Made by a program: the position numbers and the translations under genes | Shown here: positions 2,642 to 38,486 of the stretch, piece after piece | Layout of the letters: the number at the start of each line of letters is the position of its first letter | Numbering within the stretch: the first letter of the stretch is position 1 | DNA from: a virus | Lineage: Duplodnaviria; Heunggongvirae; Uroviricota; Caudoviricetes | Direction: 5' to 3' (one strand) | DNA length: 43,389 nucleotides | Virus record (IMG/VR): IMGVR_UViG_2778261064_000026 | Coordinates: 1 to 43,389 of that record | The notes under the pieces: generated by a model | What the model was told of the DNA's origin: nothing | Database searches by the model: none | The model's input: only the letters and a program-made list of their open reading frames with translations

Positions 2642-3817
2642 TTAGGCAGCGTCTAAGAGAGTATTAAAGTATTCATCCATTAAATCAGGACTGTCGTCAT
2701 CAATACAGAAAAATTCCGGTTTATTGATGCCGTAGAAGTGAGTATGTAGCTTGAATGTATCGTCATCAAATACATCTTTCTGGGATACCCACATATTAGC
2801 CTCGTCCGGTTGATTGGTTAGGTAGTCATAAACCAGTTGCTGTAAGTGTGGTAACTCATCAATAGTCAGAGTTTCCGACCATCCATCCTTGAAATCTTTG
2901 TAGGGTGCTGCATGAGTCTTGAAGCGTTGTTTTACTTCATGCTCTAAATCAACGGCTTTCCAACCATCCTCAAACTCATGAGTAAAGATTAAGCGGTGAG
3001 TGAAGTTGCTCTTTCTGGTTTGCTCTCTCATTCGTTCTTCTGGTTTCCGGGTAGTGATTCCAAATTTAATAAATTTGTCATCTAATAATTGAATATAGAA
3101 ACTAGCCTTACCCTGATAAGTCCGGTTAGACAGTTGCACCAGTTGGTCTTTAATGCAAAGCGGACAAGTGAAAGAATCAGCACATCTTAAATGAGATTCC
3201 CATTCGTGATTATGTGTCTTGCAATAGGTTTTAAATTTAACATCCTTTAGGTGTGGGGTGTTTATGATGAATCCTTTGAAGGTGTAAGGCGTACTCTCGC
3301 AACGTGCATTGATGATTGTCTCTTTGTCCTTAATAACTTCATCAAAAGTCTTGCCACTTCTTACCCGTTGGGATTTTTCAGCCATACAGATTTTGCAATC
3401 AAAATCGAAATCATCTTTGAGAGCATGTAATAGAGATGGCGTCATGATTTGATTGTGTTCAGGGCACAAAACACGGGATTTTGTCTTGTTGCGCCCTTTC
3501 CATTCTCCTTGCCATCCGAGGAATTTCTTTCCCTTCTCATTACAACGAGATTCCATTTTCAACCATACAGCCTTTTCAGTCTGGAGTAACTCACCCCCGT
3601 TAGTATCTTCCAGTTTGCGTAATTTGTAGTCCTTATATTCTTGTGTATCTAAATTGTAGATTCGAAAGTAAGTGTGATTACCCTTCCACGGTAGGATAAA
3701 TCCACCAAATACGAAAGCAGGTTCCAGTTTAGCGATGATTCGTTGTTGGTACTCTTCCGGCGATAAACCGCGAGTTTTCTTAACAAAAGGAATTTCGGCA
3801 GCGTAAGCAAGTTTCAT
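2642..3817 (-). CDS. T5orf172 (GIY-YIG-like) domain protein with several Cys-pair zinc-finger-like motifs, about 391 aa from internal ATG
   Basis: FIKFGITTRKPEERMREQ motif; multiple CxxC/CxxH pairs; start moved to MKLAYAAE because of RBS gaggaaact; track ORF extends to 3928. Confidence 0.5.
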   Translation of the reverse strand: MKLAYAAEIPFVKKTRGLSPEEYQQRIIAKLEPAFVFGGFILPWKGNHTYFRIYNLDTQEYKDYKLRKLEDTNGGELLQTEKAVWLKMESRCNEKGKKFLGWQGEWKGRNKTKSRVLCPEHNQIMTPSLLHALKDDFDFDCKICMAEKSQRVRSGKTFDEVIKDKETIINARCESTPYTFKGFIINTPHLKDVKFKTYCKTHNHEWESHLRCADSFTCPLCIKDQLVQLSNRTYQGKASFYIQLLDDKFIKFGITTRKPEERMREQTRKSNFTHRLIFTHEFEDGWKAVDLEHEVKQRFKTHAAPYKDFKDGWSETLTIDELPHLQQLVYDYLTNQPDEANMWVSQKDVFDDDTFKLHTHFYGINKPEFFCIDDDSPDLMDEYFNTLLDAA

Positions 3818-3876
3818 AGTAGTTTCCTCTAAAATAATAAGCTCACTACTATTTATTAGAGAAAATTGTCTTACTA

Positions 3877-3904
3877 TTGCATTCTCTATCTGGATGTGTA
3901 CAAT
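3877..3904 (+). promoter_or_regulatory. sigma70-like promoter (TTGCAT, 16-nt spacer, TACAAT) for the 3971 gene
   Basis: hexamers read directly from sequence. Confidence 0.3.
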
Positions 3905-3970
3905 ACGCGACCCTAAATCCCAAACCAACCATATTGAGGTTATGCCTATAAGTTAAAAAGTGAGGTCTAT

Positions 3971-4540
3971 ATGATTCCAGTAATGGCTAAAGATATTGTT
4001 TTTACTCCTAAATCCTCCCGTGCTGCAACTCCATCGGCATTAGAACAACGCATTCTGACTCACATCAAAGAGAAGGACTTACCGTTAGTCTTTCATGGCT
4101 TTCTGGGTGAGTTTAAAGGGCTTCATTCAAGAATTGCTCTTACATGTACCCGATGCGGCAATAGAGCCGACAAATCAGCTACCAACCTGCTTAATGAAGG
4201 TAAACGCTGTGCATGTCTCAAAAGTGATTACTTTCAATATAAAGCGGGTGTGCCTTATCTCTATGTAATGAAATCAGGGGATATTGGTAAATTTGGTGTA
4301 ACAAAGTCAATCATCAAGCGACGTGTTAATCTGGGTGTACGCAATCCCGGTCATAACTTTGATATTGTCTTTGCTGGTGAAATGCCATCAATGAAACATG
4401 CTTTAGCCACTGAAAGAGCAATAAAGAGATTACTGGATGTGGGTATAGGCGGGATTGAATACGGCAAAACTGAAACATTCCACTACTGCAATAAATCACT
4501 AAACAATATAAAGAATATTGCAAGTGTGGAGTGGAACTAA
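3971..4540 (+). CDS. T5orf172/GIY-YIG-like domain protein, 189 aa, N-terminal Cys cluster
   Basis: YLYVMKSGDIGKFGVTKS motif; RBS gtgagg; stop overlaps helicase start (TAATG). Confidence 0.4.
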   Translation: MIPVMAKDIVFTPKSSRAATPSALEQRILTHIKEKDLPLVFHGFLGEFKGLHSRIALTCTRCGNRADKSATNLLNEGKRCACLKSDYFQYKAGVPYLYVMKSGDIGKFGVTKSIIKRRVNLGVRNPGHNFDIVFAGEMPSMKHALATERAIKRLLDVGIGGIEYGKTETFHYCNKSLNNIKNIASVEWN

Positions 4541-6030
4541 TGCAAGATATTAAAATTCATTTTCAAGATTACAGTTTCGTTAAGGTTGATTGCTCTCCTT
4601 CTATCGGAATGGAATTAAGAGATTATTTCTCGTTTGAGGTTGAAGGGGCTAGGTTTAGCCCCCGCTACAAGTATTCCGGCTGGGATGGACGAATAAGACT
4701 GTTTACGCATGAAAATATCCTACCAATTGGACTATTAAAAACGTTGGGTGTCTTCGTTAAAAATATGGGCTATTCAGTCTGGATTGACCCGCGATTGCTT
4801 GAGAAGGAAGATGTAACCAAAGACGCGATTAATGAATGGATTGATTCCCTAGAAGTGTATTCCGGTTCCAATAAAATCAATCCTTACTGGTATCAAAGGG
4901 AGGCAGTCTTTCAGGGTATCCATAATCGCCGTAGAATGCTGGTTCTTCCTACCAGTGCCGGAAAGTCATTGATTGCTTGTATGCTGTCTCGTTGGTACTT
5001 AGAGAACTACACCGGAAAGATTCTAATCATTGTCCCGACTACATCGCTGGTGGTTCAAATGAGGGATGATTTTGTTGATTATCGGTTATTCCCTTATGAA
5101 GCAATCCATACAATGATGAGTGGTAGCGGGAAACATCCGGGAGACAGGTTAATCACGGTTAGTACCTGGCAATCAGCTTGCAAGATGCCTCCTGAATGGT
5201 TCAAACAATATGGAATGTTGATAGTTGATGAATCGCATAAGGCTAGTGCCAAAAATATTACCAATATCATTAACGGAATGAATCATTGCCAGTTTAAGAT
5301 CGGTATGACTGGTTCCCCGAAAGAATCAAAGTGCCATTTAATGCAATACGTCGGTATGTTCGGTGATATTTCTAAGATCGTGAGTATTGACCGCCTGATG
5401 GAAGAAGGGCAGGTGACAAAACTGAAAATTAACTGTCTTTTCCTTCGTTATACCGATGAGGAATGTAGCGCGGTTAAGGGGCGAGAATATGCGGAAGAGA
5501 TCAAGTACATCACTTCGCACGGGAGACGAAATAAGTTTGTGTGTAATTTGGCGCTAAAACTCGCTAAGAAGAACGAAAACGTATTTCTGATGTTCCGTAA
5601 CACTAAACACGGAAAACTTATGTATGACGCGTTACAGAAGGTACATGATAAGGTTTATTACATTGATGGTGGAGTTAAGACAGAAGAACGTGATGAATTT
5701 AAGAAAATGGCGGAGGGTGACACCGGGATCATTTGTGTTGCGTCTTATGGTGTGTTCTCTACTGGTGTTTCAATTAAGAACTTGCACCATGTCATTTTCG
5801 GTCATCCGGTGAAAGAATCAACTATCGTTCGTCAGAGTATTGGCCGTGCATTGCGTAAACATGGTTCTAAGGATATTGCGACCGTCTGGGATCTTATCGA
5901 TCATCTGTGTATATTCGGTCGTAACGGAAAAGTCAAGCATAAAAATTATGCGGTAAAACATGCACTTGAGAGAATCCGCTATTATCTAACCGACAAGTTC
6001 AGCTATGCAACTAAAACAATTGCTATATAA
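4540..6030 (+). CDS. SF2 DNA helicase, UvsW-like (recombination/repair helicase), 496 aa from ATG 4540
   Basis: Walker A LPTSAGKS, DExH box IVDESHKAS, motif VI QSIGRALRKHG; N-terminal domain and motif order resemble my recollection of T4 UvsW. Confidence 0.7.
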   Translation: MQDIKIHFQDYSFVKVDCSPSIGMELRDYFSFEVEGARFSPRYKYSGWDGRIRLFTHENILPIGLLKTLGVFVKNMGYSVWIDPRLLEKEDVTKDAINEWIDSLEVYSGSNKINPYWYQREAVFQGIHNRRRMLVLPTSAGKSLIACMLSRWYLENYTGKILIIVPTTSLVVQMRDDFVDYRLFPYEAIHTMMSGSGKHPGDRLITVSTWQSACKMPPEWFKQYGMLIVDESHKASAKNITNIINGMNHCQFKIGMTGSPKESKCHLMQYVGMFGDISKIVSIDRLMEEGQVTKLKINCLFLRYTDEECSAVKGREYAEEIKYITSHGRRNKFVCNLALKLAKKNENVFLMFRNTKHGKLMYDALQKVHDKVYYIDGGVKTEERDEFKKMAEGDTGIICVASYGVFSTGVSIKNLHHVIFGHPVKESTIVRQSIGRALRKHGSKDIATVWDLIDHLCIFGRNGKVKHKNYAVKHALERIRYYLTDKFSYATKTIAI

Positions 6031-12307: not shown

Positions 12308-13078
12308 TTATTTCTTGAAGTCTTCGTACATTCTACGAAGGTTGTATTTTGGATGGCCTAAGCTAACCATGATTTGACTCAATTTAACCGCGCCGGGTTT
12401 ACCGTTTTCAATCCACACGCGCCGGATTTCATCGTAATGCTGCCAACAGCCTTGACCTTTAGCAATACGTATAGAATGTGTATATTTCTTGGTAGAGCTT
12501 TCTGGTCGCTTGCGCCCTAGATGTGCTTTTCTAATCTTTTCGCGTGTTTCTTCTGATACAGGTTTACCATAACGGGGGTTATTCTCTCCACGAGTAGCAG
12601 CCGATAATTTAGCTAATATTTCTGGGTTTGTTACTTTTTTGCCTCTCATTGCACTAGGTTTACCATAGCGATGGTTCTTTTCACCCATTCGAGATGCCGA
12701 CATTTTAGCTCTAGATTCCGGTGTATGTTTTCTTCCGTAAAAAGGATGATTTTCACCACCATCAAAACCACCGACACCACCAGGAGCTATATTAAGACAT
12801 ACACCACGCCCCCATTTTTCGCGTGCTGCCTCCACTAACAGGATTTCACATTCAAACGCTTCCTCGGCAGTATCAAACAATTTTGAACGAACAACTTCAA
12901 ATTCATATATCGGGGTTTCTGATTCTTTATTTTTACGCTTCATCATTTTAATAACTTTACCCGATCCCACATATCCATCGTCTAGATTTGTGGTTGTTCT
13001 TTTTCCGACGTAATGATAGATTTTACCAGAGCGATTAGATTTAATAGTGGTGTGATAAACGTAATGGAATTTTTGCAT
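12308..13078 (-). CDS. GIY-YIG homing endonuclease with NUMOD3-type DNA-binding repeats, 256 aa
   Basis: N-terminal YHYVYHTT...GKIYHYVGKR...GYVGSG GIY-YIG motif; three repeats HPFYGRKHTPESRAK / NHRYGKPSAMRGKK / NNPRYGKPVSEETREKIRKAH. Confidence 0.75.
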   Translation of the reverse strand: MQKFHYVYHTTIKSNRSGKIYHYVGKRTTTNLDDGYVGSGKVIKMMKRKNKESETPIYEFEVVRSKLFDTAEEAFECEILLVEAAREKWGRGVCLNIAPGGVGGFDGGENHPFYGRKHTPESRAKMSASRMGEKNHRYGKPSAMRGKKVTNPEILAKLSAATRGENNPRYGKPVSEETREKIRKAHLGRKRPESSTKKYTHSIRIAKGQGCWQHYDEIRRVWIENGKPGAVKLSQIMVSLGHPKYNLRRMYEDFKK

Positions 13079-29430: not shown

Positions 29431-30036
29431 ATGCTAATTAATCAGCAACAAAGAGATGTATTAGAATTAGCCTTTTCTTGTTGTACCGATCATGAATATC
29501 GTTTGCCAGTTAAGCACCATCACAAGAAGACTGATTACACAACATCTGGATTTAGTCGTGAGGAAGCGAAAGAGATTTTAATAGAATTTTACCGCGATAA
29601 TGGTTATACAGACGTTCACAACTTCTTTAAGAAGCATAGAACATCACATACAGAGTTCCAGAGAGTCCGAGATTGGTTTGATTTTGATATCAAGCGTTAT
29701 TATCGAGTGGATGACGGTCCGATCTATCGGTTGCAGTGGAAGCCGATCCGAGAAGTGTTGAAACAGAAGAGATTGAATCACGCAATTACACGCTATCGTA
29801 ACGAGGCTTTCAAGAAAGGCTATGGTGATACAAGGGAACTATTCGTTGAACTCGCTAACGTGCGTTATAGCCACTATTACAACGATCCTAAAGGGTTCTT
29901 TGAAGTGCTTCGCAAGGTTGATATAAGTCGGGGTACATACTATTCACGGTTGAAGAAGTACGGGATTAAGGCAGAGTTCTTTATGAGTATTGACGATGGA
30001 GAACTTTTTCCGATAAAATGTAAGTCCTCTAAATAA
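29431..30036 (+). CDS. hypothetical protein, 201 aa, with C-terminal HTH module paralogous to the small HTH proteins
   Basis: C-terminal RELFVELANVRY...GTYYSRLKKYGIK aligns with the 60-aa and 77-aa proteins; RBS aaaggggg. Confidence 0.4.
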   Translation: MLINQQQRDVLELAFSCCTDHEYRLPVKHHHKKTDYTTSGFSREEAKEILIEFYRDNGYTDVHNFFKKHRTSHTEFQRVRDWFDFDIKRYYRVDDGPIYRLQWKPIREVLKQKRLNHAITRYRNEAFKKGYGDTRELFVELANVRYSHYYNDPKGFFEVLRKVDISRGTYYSRLKKYGIKAEFFMSIDDGELFPIKCKSSK

Positions 30037-30064
30037 AGGTGAACATTCACTTTAATTTGGAGAA

Positions 30065-30298
30065 ATGACTATGACTACTAAAGCTACTCGCGGTCGTCCT
30101 TGCCGTTTTACCCGTGAACAGATGGCTGATATTGCCTATGCTTACTATACAGCGGATCGTGGTAAGGAAGCGAAAGAACAGATTCTTAGTGAACATGGGA
30201 TCTCAATCGCCCAATTCTATAAGAATATGAAGAAGTTAGACATTAAATTCTATGTTCAGATCGGTGATGGTCAGATCGTAGAAGCAACAGGTTTTTGA
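30065..30298 (+). CDS. small HTH DNA-binding protein, 77 aa (FTRE...KKLDIK family)
   Basis: RGRPCRFTREQMADIAYAYY...GISIAQFYKNMKKLDIK, transposase-OrfA/resolvase-like HTH pattern. Confidence 0.45.
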   Translation: MTMTTKATRGRPCRFTREQMADIAYAYYTADRGKEAKEQILSEHGISIAQFYKNMKKLDIKFYVQIGDGQIVEATGF

Positions 30299-31675: not shown

Positions 31676-31780
31676 TTACAAATCTAGGTCAAATAGGTTC
31701 AAAATTGTCAAGTGCGATAATCATAAAAAAGTCAGAAAATTTTGTCAATACCCCTTGACAAGACGCCAAAGGGTTGACCT
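31676..31780 (-). promoter_or_regulatory. promoter with overlapping operator-like inverted repeats
   Basis: minus-strand TTGACA, 17-nt spacer, TATGAT; inverted repeat TTGTCAA-N6-TTGACAA at about 31742-31761; outer pair AGGTCAA/TTGACCT. Confidence 0.4.
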
Positions 31781-31783
31781 AAA

Positions 31784-32236
31784 TTACAGCATATCTAAGC
31801 CTTCATCGTAACCGTAGAAGCCACCGTGAGAAGAGAAACAGATTGGTGTGTAGTCGTCGTCATCTTCGTCTTGTTCATCGTGTTCTGGGGCTTCCTGAGC
31901 GGGTTGTTTACCATAATCAGCCATAATCTGGTCAAGATCGGCGATCCCATAGTAAGAGCCTAAATCAACGTCATATTCACGAACATCAAACGGCAGGTCA
32001 TCACGAACAATAATTGCCGGAATGTTGTTGTATTGTTCACGACCTTCATCAGTAAAGCAGTCTACGATCACCGTAGGGCGACCATTACGTTTAAGAGCAT
32101 AGAAAGCAGTTGAGAAATTGGAGTCTTCGGAATGACGAATGATGTTATAACCACGATTAGCGAAAACATGCATCATAGCCAGATTATCATCATGGTTCAG
32201 ACCCAGAAGAATGAAAGGAGTTTTAGTATTGATCAT
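31784..32236 (-). CDS. hypothetical protein, 150 aa, with acidic C-terminal tail
   Basis: ORF track; RBS agagga; EHDEQDEDDDDY tail. Confidence 0.4.
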   Translation of the reverse strand: MINTKTPFILLGLNHDDNLAMMHVFANRGYNIIRHSEDSNFSTAFYALKRNGRPTVIVDCFTDEGREQYNNIPAIIVRDDLPFDVREYDVDLGSYYGIADLDQIMADYGKQPAQEAPEHDEQDEDDDDYTPICFSSHGGFYGYDEGLDML

Positions 32237-32497
32237 AGTGGAAATCCTCTAAAAGAAAGTGAATCAAACAAAGTACACTATTATTTATAACGAGAAATTT
32301 TTGTCTAATTTGAAAGGAATTGGTATTCAGTCGGCTTCGCCTCCTTCATAGATTTTGATTAAATCATCATCAAAACGAAGAAGTATCTTTAGAATATAAG
32401 AATCTTTCTTTTGGAGAAATTATAATCAGGAAGCAATTTAGCAACCGAAGGTTGCAATCCCGAAGGGATAACCAATACCTTTCATGATCATTAAAGT

Positions 32498-32720
32498 GAT
32501 CTAGAATCATCTAGTAACCAGTTAACTACTATTATCTTCAAAGTGATTATTACTATCTTTCTAGAATCAGTTAGTAACTAGTTTAAAAATCCCTTTCAAG
32601 AAAATCCTTTCAGAAGTGATTCTCGATGCCACGCAGTGGCGTCGCAGACGTTTGAGAGTGAGCGAAGCGAGCGAGCAAACTAGTTAATTCCTTCTAAGAC
32701 CATCTAGTATCATCTAGTTT
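32498..32720. repeat. cluster of CTAG-rich palindromic repeats
   Basis: ctagaatcatctagtaaccagttaact, ctagaatcagttagtaactagtt, catctagtatcatctagtt; palindromes AGTTAACT, AACTAGTT, TTCTAGAA. Confidence 0.4.
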
Positions 32721-32865
32721 AAATTAGTGTTACTAGAAGTAATTGGTTAGCGCTTCGCGCAGTCGGGCTACGCCCTCCTAATATCTTTTTGGTTATTTGT
32801 TGTTTTTGGTTTTACACATGAGCGTAGCGAATGTGTTATATAATATCTATGCACGCCCGATTCCC

Positions 32866-33110
32866 CGTTTTTGCCCCTCGCTAAGTTAATGTTTTATAAA
32901 GAGTTTTTCTCACCAATCCTTTTCGGGGGCAAATTTCAGGGGCAAAAATTAGATTTTCAGGGGCAATTATTGGCATTTCAGGGGCAAAAATGAGGGGCAA
33001 AATCACCGTTTCCCAGAATTTCAGGGGCAAAAATAGTAGGTTTCAGGGGCAAAAATGGGATAGTGAAATCTAGGGGATTTTGGTTCAGGGGCAAAATTCA
33101 GGGGCAATTT
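32866..33110. repeat. iteron array: nine direct copies of (T)TCAGGGGCAA(AAAT) plus one inverted copy
   Basis: GGGGCAA cores at about 32926, 32939, 32960, 32981, 32995, 33024, 33046, 33088, 33101; inverted at 32871; spacings mostly 13-14, 21-22, 42 bp. Confidence 0.65.
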
Positions 33111-33148
33111 TCATAGTGTAGTGCTAGTGTAGGTTTGAAAGTCCTTTC

Positions 33149-33177
33149 TTGACACTATGTAGGTTTGGTGCTATACT
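33149..33177 (+). promoter_or_regulatory. near-consensus sigma70 promoter P1 (TTGACA, 17 nt, TATACT)
   Basis: read directly from sequence. Confidence 0.6.
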
Positions 33178-33206
33178 TGACAATTTGAGAAAAAATGTGG
33201 TATAAT
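33177..33206 (+). promoter_or_regulatory. consensus sigma70 promoter P2 (TTGACA, 18 nt, TATAAT), overlapping P1
   Basis: read directly from sequence. Confidence 0.6.
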
Positions 33207-33626
33207 ATTTGTATTGAAAGTGAAAATTTACCGATTTTCCTTCCTATTGTTATCACCGTGTTAAATTGTTATATGTTTGTGAAGATTTGGATCTGAGAGA
33301 AAATCTTGTAACAAATCTTTACAATTCATAGCTCAATTAATGCTCACCGCTTTAGCAAAAAGTGCTATGCATTTTTCTAAATTGATTGAATAAACATCAA
33401 TTTGGTTAATTCGTGTTCTTCTCTTTAGCAATTCGTGCTGCGGTTTAACACATTTAACACGTCTGATAACATCTGAATAACATTTTAACATATCTCTGTT
33501 ATAAATACATATATAAGAGATAAATGTGAGGGGTTGAAAAATAAAATACAATCCCCATATAAATAATAGTGAGCGGTTAACGCTCTTTTTTAAGAAATCA
33601 TTAATCCAGATTTAGGAGGATTTAAG

Positions 33627-33809
33627 ATGGCACGACCTGTTAAGTTCACTCGTGAAATCGTTTTAGAAATGGCAAAGCGTTATTTTGAACTGACACCTGA
33701 TGTAGTGATGGGTGAATGGTTTAAAGGTGAAGGTATTGATCAATCAACCTTCCACAAACTCTTAAAGAAGTATGACATTAAAGTAAAGATTACCGCAGAG
33801 GTGTGGTAA
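33627..33809 (+). CDS. small HTH DNA-binding protein, 60 aa (FTRE...KKYDIK family)
   Basis: MARPVKFTREIVLEMAKRYF...GIDQSTFHKLLKKYDIK; RBS aggagga. Confidence 0.5.
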   Translation: MARPVKFTREIVLEMAKRYFELTPDVVMGEWFKGEGIDQSTFHKLLKKYDIKVKITAEVW

Positions 33810-33922
33810 TAACCTTTCACTGAGAATTATATGATGGCTTTAAAAAAGAAAAAGCCTCCCTTGTTGCAGCAAAGGAGGCTTGAAATGAACAATTAAAACT
33901 AACTTTCCACGGAGTATTTATA

Positions 33923-34864
33923 ATGTTATTTTCCGCTAACTTTTTCACTAACGAAGTAACCAACGCTAAAGCAGTTATCAAATTTGGCACCGAAGCAAAC
34001 AAGAAGATTCAGCCGAAAGTTGTTGCTCATGTTTCCTTTGCGCAGCAGAAATCCGCTTTCGCTGGCTTTAAAGCACATCGTGAAGCACTGATCGCGGCTG
34101 GCTTTGGTGTTGACGGTAAACTGCCTAACGGCATTCGTAAAGCAATCGACCGCGTTAAACCTGCTAAAGACGTTGCAGTAGACCGCATCGTTACTTTTAC
34201 CGTTAAGAACTCTTCTGAACTGTTCCACCTGGTTATTGCTGGTGATACTGCTATCGTTTCCGCTCCTAACATGGATTTTCAGGATACCGCTGATTGCCAG
34301 ATCACCTTCGGTCGTCGTAAAGAAGTTACCGGAAAAGCTAAACTGAACTTCACTAAATCCGGCAATCCTTACTTTGCTGTTTTCTTTAACAGCCACGCTA
34401 CCGAAAAAGAAGTTGTAGAACTGGTTGCTTATGAAGGTGAAGAGAAAGAACGTATTGAATCTTGCGAAGCATTTCTGGAACTGGAAGCACAGGTGAATGC
34501 TGTTTCTCCGGTTGTTGAAGATCGCTTTGCTGCACTGGAAGCACAGATCGCAGAACTGAAAGCTGCACTGGAAGAAAAAGACCAGATTATCGAAGCACAG
34601 AAAGCTGAGATTGAAGAACTGAAAGCTAAAGAAGTTGCTCCGGTAGCAGTAGTTGAAAACGCGGCTGATGAGGCCGCAAATGATGAAGTAGAAGTGAAAA
34701 TCGATGTGATGCGTGATCCGATGGCTGCACTGCAATTACTTCGTTCTTTTAAGGGCAAATCTCATTTTTCTAGTGATGTAGAAGATGAGGAAGAAGAACA
34801 GAAACGCAATGCTGCAATGCTTCATGATGAAATGTACGGTACTAACTTTTCTTACTGCCAATAA
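33923..34864 (+). CDS. hypothetical protein, 313 aa, with central coiled coil and acidic patches; likely highly expressed
   Basis: host-optimal codons (ctg, cgt, ggt, aac, ttc); first large ORF downstream of tandem consensus promoters. Confidence 0.5.
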   Translation: MLFSANFFTNEVTNAKAVIKFGTEANKKIQPKVVAHVSFAQQKSAFAGFKAHREALIAAGFGVDGKLPNGIRKAIDRVKPAKDVAVDRIVTFTVKNSSELFHLVIAGDTAIVSAPNMDFQDTADCQITFGRRKEVTGKAKLNFTKSGNPYFAVFFNSHATEKEVVELVAYEGEEKERIESCEAFLELEAQVNAVSPVVEDRFAALEAQIAELKAALEEKDQIIEAQKAEIEELKAKEVAPVAVVENAADEAANDEVEVKIDVMRDPMAALQLLRSFKGKSHFSSDVEDEEEEQKRNAAMLHDEMYGTNFSYCQ

Positions 34865-34867
34865 AAA

Positions 34868-34886
34868 AGGGACTCCGAAGAGTCCC
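34868..34886 (-). terminator. terminator-like hairpin
   Basis: gggactc-cgaa-gagtccc preceded by A6 on plus strand (U-run on minus). Confidence 0.4.
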
Positions 34887-34970
34887 TAGTAAGTTTAGGT
34901 TAGGTTTTGCACAACAAAGATGAGGTTATAATGAACATAATGCTACATTATTCTTTAAAGCCAGAAAAAT

Positions 34971-34990
34971 AACCGCCCCCGAAGGGGCGG
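34971..34990 (-). terminator. terminator-like hairpin
   Basis: ccgcccc-cgaa-ggggcgg preceded by aaaaataa on plus strand. Confidence 0.4.
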
Positions 34991-36746: not shown

Positions 36747-37187
<441 letters not shown>

Positions 37188-38398: not shown

Positions 38399-38486
38399 GG
38401 TGAGGTGTCCGAGTGGCTGAAGGAGCACGCCTGGAAAGTGTGTATACGGCAACGTATCGGGGGTTCGAATCCCCCCCTCACCGCCA
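38399..38486 (+). tRNA. serX: tRNA-Ser (anticodon GGA)
   Basis: GGTGAGGTGTCCGAGTGGCTGAAGGAGCACGCCTGGAAAGTGTG...GGTTCGAATCCCCCCCTCACCGCCA with long variable arm and encoded CCA; ghrA neighbour. Confidence 0.9.

What the first reader, a model, noticed from the sequence alone, without database searches (positions are those of the whole stretch)
33149..33206. Two overlapping near-perfect consensus sigma70 promoters driving an early rightward unit
P1 is TTGACA, 17 nt, TATACT and P2 is TTGACA, 18 nt, TATAAT, both on the plus strand; the -10 of P1 abuts the -35 of P2. Promoters this close to consensus are typical of immediate-early, host-RNAP-dependent phage genes made at very high level. They feed the 60-aa HTH gene and the 313-aa gene.
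Basis: seen in the sequence. Interest (0 to 1): 0.6.

Follow-up and report, generated by a model that had tools for sequence, protein, structure and literature searches.

The report
Strong promoter pair before phage leader RNA
Two overlapping, almost perfect bacterial promoters in an uncharacterised E. coli prophage are real and conserved, but they fire into a 400-base structured non-coding leader that ends in a terminator, inside a module whose upstream DNA repeats always change together with a downstream orphan protein.

Summary
P1 (33149-33177, TTGACA-17-TATACT) and P2 (33177-33206, TTGACA-18-TATAAT) both carry a TG extended -10 and share one base. About 0.04 perfect matches are expected by chance in the window.

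A near-consensus sigma70 promoter sits at the same position in about 40 related prophage loci from E. coli, Salmonella and Edwardsiella. P2 is the constant one; P1 varies.

The promoters do not abut the 60-aa gene. They open a 380-410 nt ORF-free, AT-rich leader that folds far better than shuffled sequence (z = -6.2). It ends in a conserved hairpin plus T-run, with about 35 bases between the T-run and the start codon.

The upstream repeats ("iterons") come in at least six sequence types. Each type co-occurs with its own version of the 313-aa gene: 33 of 33 complete E. coli genomes for the type seen here. Repeat type does not track the promoter, the leader or the 60-aa gene.

Most likely this is the control cassette of a type-specific repeat-binding protein, probably an origin and initiator or an autoregulator, gated by read-through of the leader terminator. 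No transcription data were available. The promoters themselves are ordinary; the module is an unusual variant built from orphan proteins.

The parts
32866..33109 (+). Iteron array: 9 direct copies of TTCAGGGGCAAAA, spaced 13 or 21-22 bp or multiples of these, plus one inverted copy at 32866-32878. AT-rich DNA lies to its left (32780-32815).
   Evidence: 12 matches against 1.7 expected. The type co-varies with the 313-aa gene.
33113..33167 (+). Three (TA)GTGTAGG(TTTG) boxes around and inside P1 (33127-33136 and 33157-33166 are the clearest). These are the iterons of the other common type of this phage family and are probably a recombination remnant.
   Evidence: (D11). L002 carries 9 such boxes abutting its promoter.
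33149..33177 (+). P1: TTGACA-17-TATACT with TG extended -10. Predicted start near 33183.
   Evidence: The -10 varies among relatives: TATACT, TATAAT or TACACT.
33177..33206 (+). P2: TTGACA-18-TATAAT with TG extended -10, 12/12. Predicted start at A33213. This is the conserved core promoter.
33213..33626 (+). ORF-free, AT-rich (25-33% GC), structured leader of type A.
   Evidence: RNA fold z = -6.18. No conserved ORF. 96% mean column identity in 14 loci. Lowest GC in the window. No Rfam family.
33257..33266 (+). 5' arm of a long-range helix (CGTGTTAAAT) that pairs with 33452-33461 (ATTTAACACG).
   Evidence: (I17), the MFE fold, and the alignment, where variation is confined to the internal loop next to the helix.
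33353..33367 (+). Palindrome or hairpin TAGCA-aaaag-TGCTA, followed by TGCATTTTTCT.
   Evidence: Read.
33421..33439 (+). Block CTCTTTAGCAATTCGTGCT, containing TAGCA-N5-TGCT. The TAGCAATTCGTGCT part is present in all A and B leaders; the first bases vary.
   Evidence: The same 19-mer is also found in Rogue1-like lytic phages.
33491..33522 (+). Hairpin TATCTCT/AGAGATA with TATAAATAC in its loop (TATAAATA box at 33500-33507).
   Evidence: The loop is conserved while the stem sequence differs in every leader type.
33530..33565 (+). GGGGTTGAAA-N18-TATAAATA element (second TATAAATA box at 33558-33565). It could be an internal promoter for the 60-aa gene.
33571..33591 (+). Intrinsic-terminator-like hairpin GAGCG-gttaa-CGCTC plus T6. 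The T-run ends 35 nt before the ATG.
   Evidence: -8.3 kcal/mol. A hairpin plus T-run is present at this position in every relative, with different stems and loops.
33614..33809 (+). Shine-Dalgarno AGGAGG (33614-33619) and the 60-aa gene p60 (33627-33809), a predicted three-helix HTH-like protein. Two paralogous domains lie at 30065-30298 and 29431-30036.
33852..33881 (.). Conserved 12-bp hairpin between p60 and the 313-aa gene. It reads as a strong terminator on the minus strand. A minus-strand TATAAATA box lies at 33915-33922.
   Evidence: compensatory stem changes across all iteron types.
33923..34864 (+). 313-aa orphan protein p313: a beta-rich N-terminal domain, a 60-residue coiled coil, an acidic stretch and a C-terminal LHDEMYGTNFS motif. 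Inferred to be the cognate binder of the iterons.
34868..34990 (.). Two GC-rich hairpins (34868-34887, 34973-34990) that close the rightward unit and the convergent leftward unit of the small terminase subunit (TerS) gene and the 94-aa gene.

Best explanation
P1 and P2 are genuine, selected sigma70 promoters. They form the exchangeable promoter cassette of a conserved control module in an uncharacterised, roughly 38-kb temperate phage inserted in ycdX.

The module reads, left to right: AT-rich DNA; an iteron array; one or two strong promoters; a 380-410 nt non-coding, structured leader that ends in an intrinsic terminator; the small HTH-like protein p60; a conserved hairpin; and a type-specific protein (p313).

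Proposed mechanism: host RNA polymerase needs no phage factor to fire P1/P2. The two promoters overlap, so only one can be occupied at a time, and their starts lie about 30 nt apart. The default product is the leader RNA, which ends at 33591. Only polymerases that read through this terminator, and through a weaker hairpin plus T-run at 33353-33377, reach p60 and p313. p313 then binds the iterons through its variable N-terminal domain and recruits a common partner through its conserved C-terminal motif. The most likely role is phage origin and initiator; feedback on its own expression is also possible.

Shown here: the promoter sequences and their conservation; the anatomy and conservation of the leader; the predicted stability of the leader RNA; the terminator hairpin kept through compensatory changes; and the co-variation of iterons with the protein.

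Inferred, not shown: every transcription event, termination efficiency, DNA binding by p313 and any role in replication.
For: Promoters. Relatives were found in complete E. coli genomes, IMG/VR viral contigs and Salmonella assemblies.

Conservation of a 10-12/12 promoter at a fixed distance from p60:
- 14 loci with leader type A.
- 18 loci with leader type B.
- Six Salmonella loci (L058-L063) and one Edwardsiella locus (L044); no >=10/12 match was found in L044 or L063.
- Mosaic breakpoints at about 33101 and 33246 show that the promoter block is a swappable cassette.

Leader:
- No ORF shared between leader types.
- Fold z-scores of -6.2, -4.3 and -4.9 for three unrelated leader types.
- 96% and 90% column identity within types A and B, although type B leaders sit beside p60 variants that are only 54-100% identical to the window's p60.
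- A-U to G-C compensation in an internal terminator-like hairpin of the type B leader.
- A terminal hairpin plus T5-8 is present in every leader type with different stems and loops, including the unrelated GGCCGTC/GACGGC stem in Edwardsiella.

Iteron and protein pairing:
- TTCAGGGGCAAAA (G-type) with p313.
- GTGTAGG (T-type) with a 177-aa protein followed by 146- and 80-aa coiled-coil proteins, the first two fused as one 341-aa protein in Salmonella.
- ACGGGGA with a 333-aa protein.
- CTAGGGAT with a 329-aa protein.
- GTGGAATCCGGGGGA with a 394-aa protein.
- Edwardsiella CTAAAC repeats with a 377-aa protein.
- No mismatched pair was seen, and both main types occur with both leader types.
- In complete E. 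coli genomes the same 33 records hold the G-type iterons and a full-length p313 N-domain.

Protein architecture: variable N-domain, coiled coil, and a shared C-terminal LHDxMYGTN(F/Y)S motif.

No CI-type repressor or known replication initiator is annotated anywhere in the prophage.
Against: - No transcript data were available, so start sites, termination and read-through are all predictions.
- The terminal hairpin is short (5 bp, -8.3 kcal/mol) and could be leaky enough that the leader behaves as an ordinary long 5' UTR.
- Sequence variation within each leader type is low, so covariation support is limited to a few pairs.
- p313 has no detectable similarity to any DNA-binding or Rep family. 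Its model is poor (pLDDT 56) and its fold matches are coiled coils only.
- The perfect iteron-protein association could partly reflect shared ancestry with replacement of the middle segment, rather than selection for matched pairs.
- No convincing DnaA boxes are present.
- In some relatives the iterons lie 100-300 bp from the promoter, so they are not classical operators.
Confidence: 0.5

Rival explanations
1. Plain early operon. P1/P2 are immediate-early promoters whose transcripts run through a long 5' UTR into p60 and p313. The hairpin plus T-run is a weak pause or a stabiliser and has no gating role.
For: Same strand, with no other >=10/12 sigma70 match between P2 and p60. The terminal hairpin has only 5 bp and -8.3 kcal/mol. 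A strong Shine-Dalgarno AGGAGG lies 7 nt before the ATG.
Against: This does not explain why a 415-nt ORF-free leader is more conserved than the neighbouring coding sequence, nor why it folds at z = -4 to -6 in three sequence-unrelated versions. It also does not explain why a hairpin plus T-run is kept at the same place with different sequences in every relative.
Confidence: 0.22
2. Origin activation or priming. The main job of P1/P2 is to transcribe the AT-rich DNA next to the iteron array, opening it or leaving an RNA primer or R-loop for replication. Known parallels are pR transcription at lambda ori, the tandem promoters at the T7 primary origin, T4 oriF/oriG and ColE1 RNA II. Expression of p60 and p313 would be secondary.
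For: The iterons are phased at 21-22 bp next to the strongest promoters, and the leader is the most AT-rich 450 bp of the window at 25-33% GC. The RNA is long, structured and non-coding. The phage encodes a UvsW-type helicase with a UvsW_N domain (E = 3e-34); from published T4 work, not tested here, that enzyme removes origin R-loops. No other replication gene is recognisable.
Against: It is not shown that the iterons are an origin. There are no DnaA boxes, p313 is not Rep-like, and no RNase H or polymerase hand-over signal can be recognised from sequence.
Confidence: 0.15
3. RNA-based immunity of the P4 CI / P1-P7 c4 / N15 cA kind. P1/P2 are constitutive in the lysogen, and a piece of the leader RNA acts on the nascent transcript to force termination before p60-p313. 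This would keep the prophage quiet without a protein repressor.
For: A strong promoter is followed by a long structured untranslated leader and terminators ahead of the first gene. The prophage has no recognisable CI-like repressor. A Rha/antirepressor-like gene lies nearby.
Against: No match to any Rfam family, which as I recall includes the C4 antisense RNA family, even at E <= 10. No conserved complementary triplet of the seqA/seqB/seqC kind was found; the only leader-to-mRNA complementarity (33374-33387 against 33656-33669) is not conserved in type B leaders.
Confidence: 0.1
4. Chance consensus matches with no promoter function.
For: The region is AT-rich, and promoter-like hexamers arise easily in AT-rich DNA.
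Against: The expected number of 12/12 sites in the window is 0.04, and the chance of a tandem partner is about 0.001. The region as a whole holds fewer promoter-like sites than shuffled sequence (15 against 29.9). Position and quality are conserved in about 40 related loci, including cassettes of unrelated sequence.
Confidence: 0.02

Closest known systems
Strong early sigma70 promoters of coliphages (T7 A1-A3, T5 PN25/P26, lambda pL/pR) and overlapping promoter pairs such as gal P1/P2
   Same: Near-consensus -35 and -10 hexamers at 17-18 bp spacing with a TG extension. No phage factor is needed. Arranged in tandem.
   Different: These two overlap by one base, so they are mutually exclusive. 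They are followed by a 415-nt ORF-free leader closed by a terminator, not by a gene. Only P2 is conserved. No activity has been measured.
Iteron replicons and type-specific origin/initiator pairs (P1 oriR-repA, F, pSC101, R6K; lambda-family ori-O specificity types)
   Same: An array of 9-20 direct repeats phased at about two helical turns, next to AT-rich DNA and next to the gene of a protein whose variable N-terminal domain changes together with the repeats. The conserved C-terminal part suggests a common partner.
   Different: The protein has no similarity to the Rep_3/winged-helix family or to lambda O; it is a beta-rich domain plus a coiled coil. The repeats are separated from the gene by a promoter cassette, a long leader and another gene. 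They do not overlap the promoter in most relatives. There are no DnaA boxes. Replication has not been tested.
P4 PLE-CI RNA, P1/P7 c4 and N15 cA: leader-RNA immunity with premature termination
   Same: A strong promoter, a long structured untranslated leader, termination before the first gene, and a prophage without a classical repressor.
   Different: No Rfam C4-family match. No complementary target repeats found. No evidence of processing.
Plasmid R1 copB-copA-repA control region
   Same: A small DNA-binding protein gene, then a conserved hairpin that is a terminator on the opposite strand (a possible short antisense RNA), then the specificity protein gene.
   Different: The antisense promoter would be only a TATAAATA box with no -35. 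p313 is unrelated to RepA. R1 has no iterons.
Lambda nut / rrn boxA antitermination sites
   Same: CTCTTTAGCAA resembles boxA (GCTCTTTAACAA) and overlaps a 5-bp-stem, 5-nt-loop hairpin downstream of an early promoter.
   Different: Most relatives read CGCTTTAGCAA. BoxA and the hairpin overlap instead of being spaced apart. The same 19-mer lies in the opposite orientation to transcription in Rogue1-like phages. No N-like protein was found.

Membership tests
Sigma70 (housekeeping) promoter | -35 TTGACA and -10 TATAAT hexamers separated by 16-18 bp | tested here: met
   P1 scores 11/12 with a 17-bp spacer and P2 scores 12/12 with an 18-bp spacer.
Sigma70 (housekeeping) promoter | Extended -10 TG, optional enhancer | tested here: met
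   TG is present before both -10 hexamers.
Sigma70 (housekeeping) promoter | Transcription start 5-9 nt downstream of the -10 element in vivo | not testable with these tools
   No transcriptome data are held. Predicted starts are near 33183 and at A33213.
Intrinsic (Rho-independent) terminator | GC-rich hairpin directly followed by a U-run | tested here: met
   GAGCG-gttaa-CGCTC plus T6 at 33571-33591, -8.3 kcal/mol. It is short, but kept in all relatives through different stems.
C4 antisense RNA family (P1/P7 c4, P4 CI, N15 cA) | Match to the Rfam covariance model | tested here: not met
   cmscan of the whole window at gathering threshold and of 32200-33950 at E <= 10 returned no such family.
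C4 antisense RNA family (P1/P7 c4, P4 CI, N15 cA) | Conserved complementarity between the small RNA and two target sequences in the same transcript | tested here: not met
   Inverted-repeat search found only pairs within the leader and one non-conserved pair with p60 codons.
Iteron-type replication origin | Multiple direct repeats phased by helical turns | tested here: met
   Nine direct copies with start-to-start spacing of 13, 21, 21, 43, 22 and 42 bp.
Iteron-type replication origin | Cognate initiator that co-varies with the repeats | tested here: met
   Six repeat types pair with six protein types and no mismatched pair was seen. Co-occurrence is 33 of 33 in complete E. coli genomes. Binding itself has not been tested.
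Iteron-type replication origin | Initiator of a known Rep family (Rep_3 / winged helix, lambda O) | tested here: not met
   No hit in Pfam, PHROGs, NCBIfam, PADLOC or PDB sequences. Fold search returned only coiled coils.
Iteron-type replication origin | DnaA boxes and an adjacent AT-rich unwinding element | tested here: inconclusive
   Only one-mismatch DnaA boxes at 32810 and 33472. AT-rich stretches lie on both sides of the array.
Iteron-type replication origin | Supports autonomous replication | not testable with these tools
   Needs a cloning and replication assay.
Lambda-type nut site | boxA consensus followed after a spacer by a boxB hairpin, plus an N-like arginine-rich protein | tested here: not met
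   The boxA-like CTCTTTA reads CGCTTTA in most relatives. It overlaps the hairpin. The orientation is reversed in Rogue1. No N-like gene was recognised.
Helix-turn-helix DNA-binding protein (the 60-aa product) | Three-helix bundle with a helix-turn-helix; match to a curated HTH family | tested here: inconclusive

The most novel reading that the evidence does not exclude
The promoter pair does not primarily make protein. It makes a roughly 380-410-nt regulatory or primer RNA at the heart of a previously undescribed phage replication and immunity module. In this reading, a new family of coiled-coil proteins with swappable N-terminal domains recognises at least six different iteron types, and the prophage is held silent, or its origin fired, through the leader RNA rather than through a CI-type repressor.
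Probability: 0.25. Interest if true: 0.7.

Novelty: new variant of a known kind. Interest (0 to 1): 0.45.

Why it matters
The promoters on their own are textbook. Their setting is what matters. This phage lineage is found in about 1% of complete E. coli genomes and in Salmonella and Edwardsiella. It has no isolated relative: the best match of its large terminase subunit (TerL) to a deposited phage is 44% identical. It has no recognisable repressor or replication initiator.

The module around P1/P2 is the best candidate for both functions. It offers a clean natural experiment: six repeat types matched to six protein types, flanking an interchangeable promoter, leader and small-gene cassette. 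That would allow DNA-recognition specificity to be mapped in an orphan protein family.

If the leader RNA proves to be the active product, this would extend RNA-based control of prophage genes beyond the P4/P1/N15 group. In practical terms, P2 and its relatives are compact, naturally optimised constitutive promoters.

Tried and rejected
- Rfam at gathering threshold over the window and at E <= 10 over 32200-33950: only the host tRNA, plus chance-level hits.
- Near and distant DNA searches against deposited phages: nothing except a 43-nt match to a T4-like phage at 34846-34888.
- p313 against plasmids and phages at protein level: no match.
- p313 against Pfam, PHROGs, PADLOC, NCBIfam and PDB sequences, singly and as a profile: only coiled-coil noise.
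- An exhaustive HMMER scan of 1.84 billion representative proteins found 13 hits, of which two (P0144, P0148) were further near-full-length relatives. The three giant repeat proteins among them carry unrelated repeat domains.
- Scan of one genome per species for p60 relatives: none confirmed.
- DnaA-box and IHF-site scans: nothing convincing.
- Partition site: rejected, because there is no NTPase gene and the element is integrated.
- Packaging (cos/pac) site: not favoured, because the co-varying protein is not the small terminase subunit (TerS).
- Type III toxin-antitoxin: rejected, because the leader has no tandem RNA repeats.
- boxA/nut reading of CTCTTTAGCAA: rejected as a membership claim.
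- A p60 homologue next to the shared 19-mer in Rogue1-like phages: none found.
- Literature search for a ycdX prophage or a comparable tandem-promoter and iteron arrangement: nothing relevant.
- The two partial p313 hits in E. coli genomes looked like possible chimeras that could map specificity. The one examined is an IS3 deletion.

Full report
**Setting.** The window is E. coli chromosome carrying a prophage.
- The host part begins at about 36700, with a truncated ycdX (36747-37172, minus strand), ghrA, and tRNA-Ser at 38399-38486.
- In a 98.7% identical relative, the other half of ycdX lies just beyond the window's left end. The element is therefore about 38 kb and splits ycdX.
- It encodes a large serine recombinase, a UvsW-type helicase, lambda-like tail-tip and gpA-terminase genes, and one Rha/antirepressor-like regulator. 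Nothing is annotated as a CI-type repressor or a replication initiator.
- No deposited phage is close. The best match of the large terminase subunit (TerL) is 43.7% identical.

**The observation.**
- P1 is TTGACA (33149-33154), 17 nt, TATACT (33172-33177).
- P2 is TTGACA (33177-33182), 18 nt, TATAAT (33201-33206).
- Both are on the + strand and both have TG before the -10. They share base T33177.
- They are the two best sigma70 matches in the 17 kb scanned, a region that overall holds fewer promoter-like sites than shuffled sequence (15 against 29.9).
- From base composition, 0.04 perfect sites are expected in the whole window. The chance of a second >=11/12 site within 60 nt on the same strand is about 0.001.
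- The description is correct and is not a chance feature.

**Conservation.** Relatives were collected from four sources: 63 complete E. coli genomes, 22 IMG/VR contigs found through a leader motif, 29 IMG/VR loci found through the 60-aa protein, and Salmonella assemblies.
- Nearly every relative has a 10-12/12 sigma70 promoter at a fixed distance upstream of the 60-aa gene. The distance is -450 in leader type A (the window's type), about -371 in type B, and -325, -307 or -127 in Salmonella. No such match was found in L044 or L063.
- Within type A, P2 is always 11-12/12.
- P1 ranges from TACACT (10/12) to TATAAT (12/12), and two relatives carry two perfect promoters.
- Mosaic breakpoints at about 33101 and 33246 show that the promoter block is a cassette that has been exchanged.
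- P1 is flanked by, and contains, GTGTAGG boxes, which are the iterons of the other common type of this family. Its TATACT -10 matches the promoter found with those iterons. The tandem arrangement therefore looks like a recombination product that was kept.

**What lies downstream.** In fact 415 nt separate the predicted P2 start (A33213) from the ATG at 33627.
- This stretch has no ORF of 40 aa or more on the + strand (its longest is 33 aa and begins inside P2), and no ORF shared between leader types on either strand.
- It is the most AT-rich part of the window, at 25-33% GC.
- As RNA it folds at -108 kcal/mol against -78 +/- 5 for shuffles, z = -6.2.
- Two leader versions with little or no sequence similarity also fold unusually well: z = -4.3 for type B and -4.9 for a Salmonella type.
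- Within types the leader is 96% (A) and 90% (B) identical. Type B leaders nevertheless sit beside 60-aa proteins that are only 54-100% identical to the window's.
- No Rfam family matches.

**Elements shared across leader types.**
- A hairpin carries TATAAATAC in its loop, and its stem sequence differs in each type: TATCTCT/AGAGATA here, UUUCGUG/CAUGAAA in type B, ACACG/UGUGU in Salmonella.
- The block TAGCAATTCGTGCT is present in all A and B leaders. Its extended form is CTCTTTAGCAATTCGTGCT at 33421-33439, and a second palindrome lies at 33353-33367.
- A second TATAAATA box sits about 70 nt before the ATG.
- Directly after that box comes a hairpin plus T5-8 run. The gap from the end of the T-run to the ATG is 35 nt in the window and similar in the relatives.
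  - In the window it is GAGCG-gttaa-CGCTC plus T6 (33571-33591, -8.3 kcal/mol).
  - Relatives carry AGAGC-gaaaa-GCTCT, GAGAGCG-aaa-CGCTCTT, AAGAGC-aaaa-GCTCTT and, in Edwardsiella, the unrelated GGCCGTC-accc-GACGGC.
- The type B leader also contains an internal hairpin plus T-run with A-U to G-C compensation.

The conserved design is therefore a strong promoter, then a structured non-coding RNA, then a terminator, then a Shine-Dalgarno sequence and the gene.

**The genes.**
- The 60-aa protein has no curated family.
- Two paralogous domains occur in the same phage, at 30065-30298 and at the C-terminus of 29431-30036.
- Its predicted third helix is nearly invariant across variants. This would fit recognition of the conserved leader palindrome, but that is conjecture.
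- The 313-aa protein is an orphan. Thirteen proteins match it among 1.84 billion representatives. Apart from its own representative, only P0144 and P0148 are near full length, and a 28% identical Edwardsiella protein was found separately. There are no hits in plasmids or deposited phages and no family or PDB match.
- The model is poor (pLDDT 56). It shows a beta-rich N-domain, a 60-residue helix and disordered acidic parts, and fold search returns only coiled coils.

**The key comparative result.** The upstream repeats come in at least six sequence types, and each type is found only with its own version of the protein downstream of the 60-aa gene.
- TTCAGGGGCAAAA with p313.
- GTGTAGG with a 177-aa protein followed by 146- and 80-aa coiled-coil proteins, the first two fused as one 341-aa protein in Salmonella.
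- ACGGGGA with a 333-aa protein.
- CTAGGGAT with a 329-aa protein.
- GTGGAATCCGGGGGA with a 394-aa protein.
- CTAAAC repeats with a 377-aa protein in Edwardsiella.

Repeat type does not track leader type, the 60-aa variant or the leftward 150-aa gene. Both main repeat types occur with both leader types. In complete E. coli genomes the same 33 records hold the G-type repeats and a full-length p313 N-domain. Of the two extra partial hits, the one examined is an IS3 deletion.

The proteins share an architecture: a variable N-domain, a coiled coil, an acidic stretch, and in three types a C-terminal LHDxMYGTN(F/Y)S motif. The conserved leader between repeats and gene is an ideal substrate for crossovers, so the absence of mismatched pairs argues for functional coupling. 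I infer that the N-domain reads the repeats and the C-terminus contacts a common partner. Binding has not been shown.

**Mechanism.**
- Shown: sequence-perfect host-type promoters; their conservation; the anatomy of the leader; hairpins kept through compensatory changes; and the pairing of repeats with protein.
- Inferred: RNA polymerase fires P1/P2 without phage factors. Most transcripts end at 33591, giving a 380-410-nt RNA. Read-through supplies p60 and p313, and p313 acts on the repeats.
- Why I favour an origin and initiator role for the repeats and p313:
  - The phage must have an origin and initiator, and none is recognisable elsewhere.
  - The repeats are phased at 21-22 bp next to AT-rich DNA.
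  - In several relatives they lie 100-300 bp from the promoter, which does not suit a simple operator.
- The rivals overlap with this view rather than exclude it. They are a plain early operon with a leaky hairpin, transcription that activates or primes the origin (note the UvsW-type helicase), and P4/N15-like RNA immunity. The last is weakened by the lack of an Rfam C4-family match and of conserved target complementarity.

**Comparison with known systems.** As promoters these are ordinary members of the strong early sigma70 class. As a module, the closest analogues are iteron replicons and lambda-type ori-O specificity pairs. The protein family is unrelated to those, and the promoter, leader and small gene are interposed between repeats and gene. 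The module resembles the leader-RNA control regions of P4/P1/N15 in layout only. Membership in the C4 RNA family, in nut sites and in known Rep families was tested and not met.

**Verdict.** The promoters are unremarkable in kind. They anchor a conserved, unannotated control module built from orphan parts, whose logic can be tested directly.

Noticed in passing
window 537, 31312(-), 32282(-), 33500, 33558, 33915(-), 35513(-), 36340: The octamer TATAAATA, identical to the T4 late-promoter consensus, occurs 8 times against 2.85 expected (0 of 100 shuffles reach 8). Every copy is intergenic and points at the next gene, 30-80 nt before its start. Four copies are followed within 5-40 nt by a GC-rich hairpin. 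No gp55-like sigma factor was recognised. It may be a phage-specific promoter or control box.
   Followed up: partly
window 33842-33922: The hairpin between the 60-aa and 313-aa genes (33852-33881) is kept in all iteron types through compensatory stem changes and reads as a strong terminator on the minus strand. Together with the minus-strand TATAAATA box that overlaps the spacer between the ribosome-binding site and the ATG of the 313-aa gene, it could delimit a roughly 70-nt antisense RNA against that gene's 5' UTR.
   Followed up: partly
window 33421-33439; L011, L021, L026, L057 (Rogue1/C119-type phages); L009: The 19-mer CTCTTTAGCAATTCGTGCT (palindrome TAGCA-N5-TGCT) is also present, as an exact match, in lytic T1-like Rogunavirus genomes. 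There it lies in the 58-nt gap between the VRR-NUC gene gp50 and gp51, in the opposite orientation to transcription. It also occurs in an unrelated GC-rich viral contig. No p60 homologue lies nearby. This is unexplained; it could be a shared host-factor or phage-protein site.
   Followed up: partly
L060 about 2490-2510 and L062 about 2645-2665 (Salmonella relatives): A perfect sigma54-type -24/-12 element (TGGCAC-N5-TTGCA) sits between the iterons and the sigma70 promoter in two Salmonella relatives that have different iteron types. I did not see it in the window.
   Followed up: no
window 32430-32860: Left of the iterons lies a 400-bp ORF-free stretch. It holds a chain of short GC-rich hairpins with UUCG, UACG and GNAG-type loops and four copies of TCTAGAATCATCTAGTA. 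The same design is conserved in Salmonella relatives. It could be part of an origin (single-strand initiation signals) or another structured RNA.
   Followed up: no
window 31720-31748(-) and 32280-32307(-): A third near-consensus sigma70 promoter (TTGACA-17-TATGAT, 11/12) drives the leftward 110-aa and Rha/antirepressor-like genes. A weaker one overlaps a TATAAATA box and precedes the 150-aa gene. The 1.4-kb non-coding region is therefore a divergent control region.
   Followed up: no
window 1-36700: The prophage splits the host gene ycdX and uses a large serine recombinase (889-2568). It also carries a UvsW-type helicase (4531-6030), two CapR-domain proteins, one with a T5orf172/MUG113 domain (2642-3928, 3971-4540), and a NUMOD3-motif protein (12308-13078) inside the tail gene block. 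No CI-like repressor is annotated.
   Followed up: partly
window 29431-30298 and 33627-33809; L044 1368-1971: The p60-like domain of about 55 aa occurs three times in this phage (60 aa, 77 aa, and the C-terminus of a 201-aa protein). In the Edwardsiella relative two of the paralogues sit directly upstream of the leader. The family is restricted to E. coli, Salmonella and Edwardsiella prophages, with 19 clusters among 5.8 billion proteins.
   Followed up: partly
L064 (E. coli 14EC029): In one genome an IS3 element has replaced the iterons, promoters, leader, the 60-aa gene and the first third of the 313-aa gene, leaving a decayed prophage.
   Followed up: yes
window 34846-34888: The only DNA match to any deposited phage is a 43-nt stretch, 91% identical, in the T4-like phage TH57. 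It spans the stop of the 313-aa gene and the first terminator hairpin.
   Followed up: no
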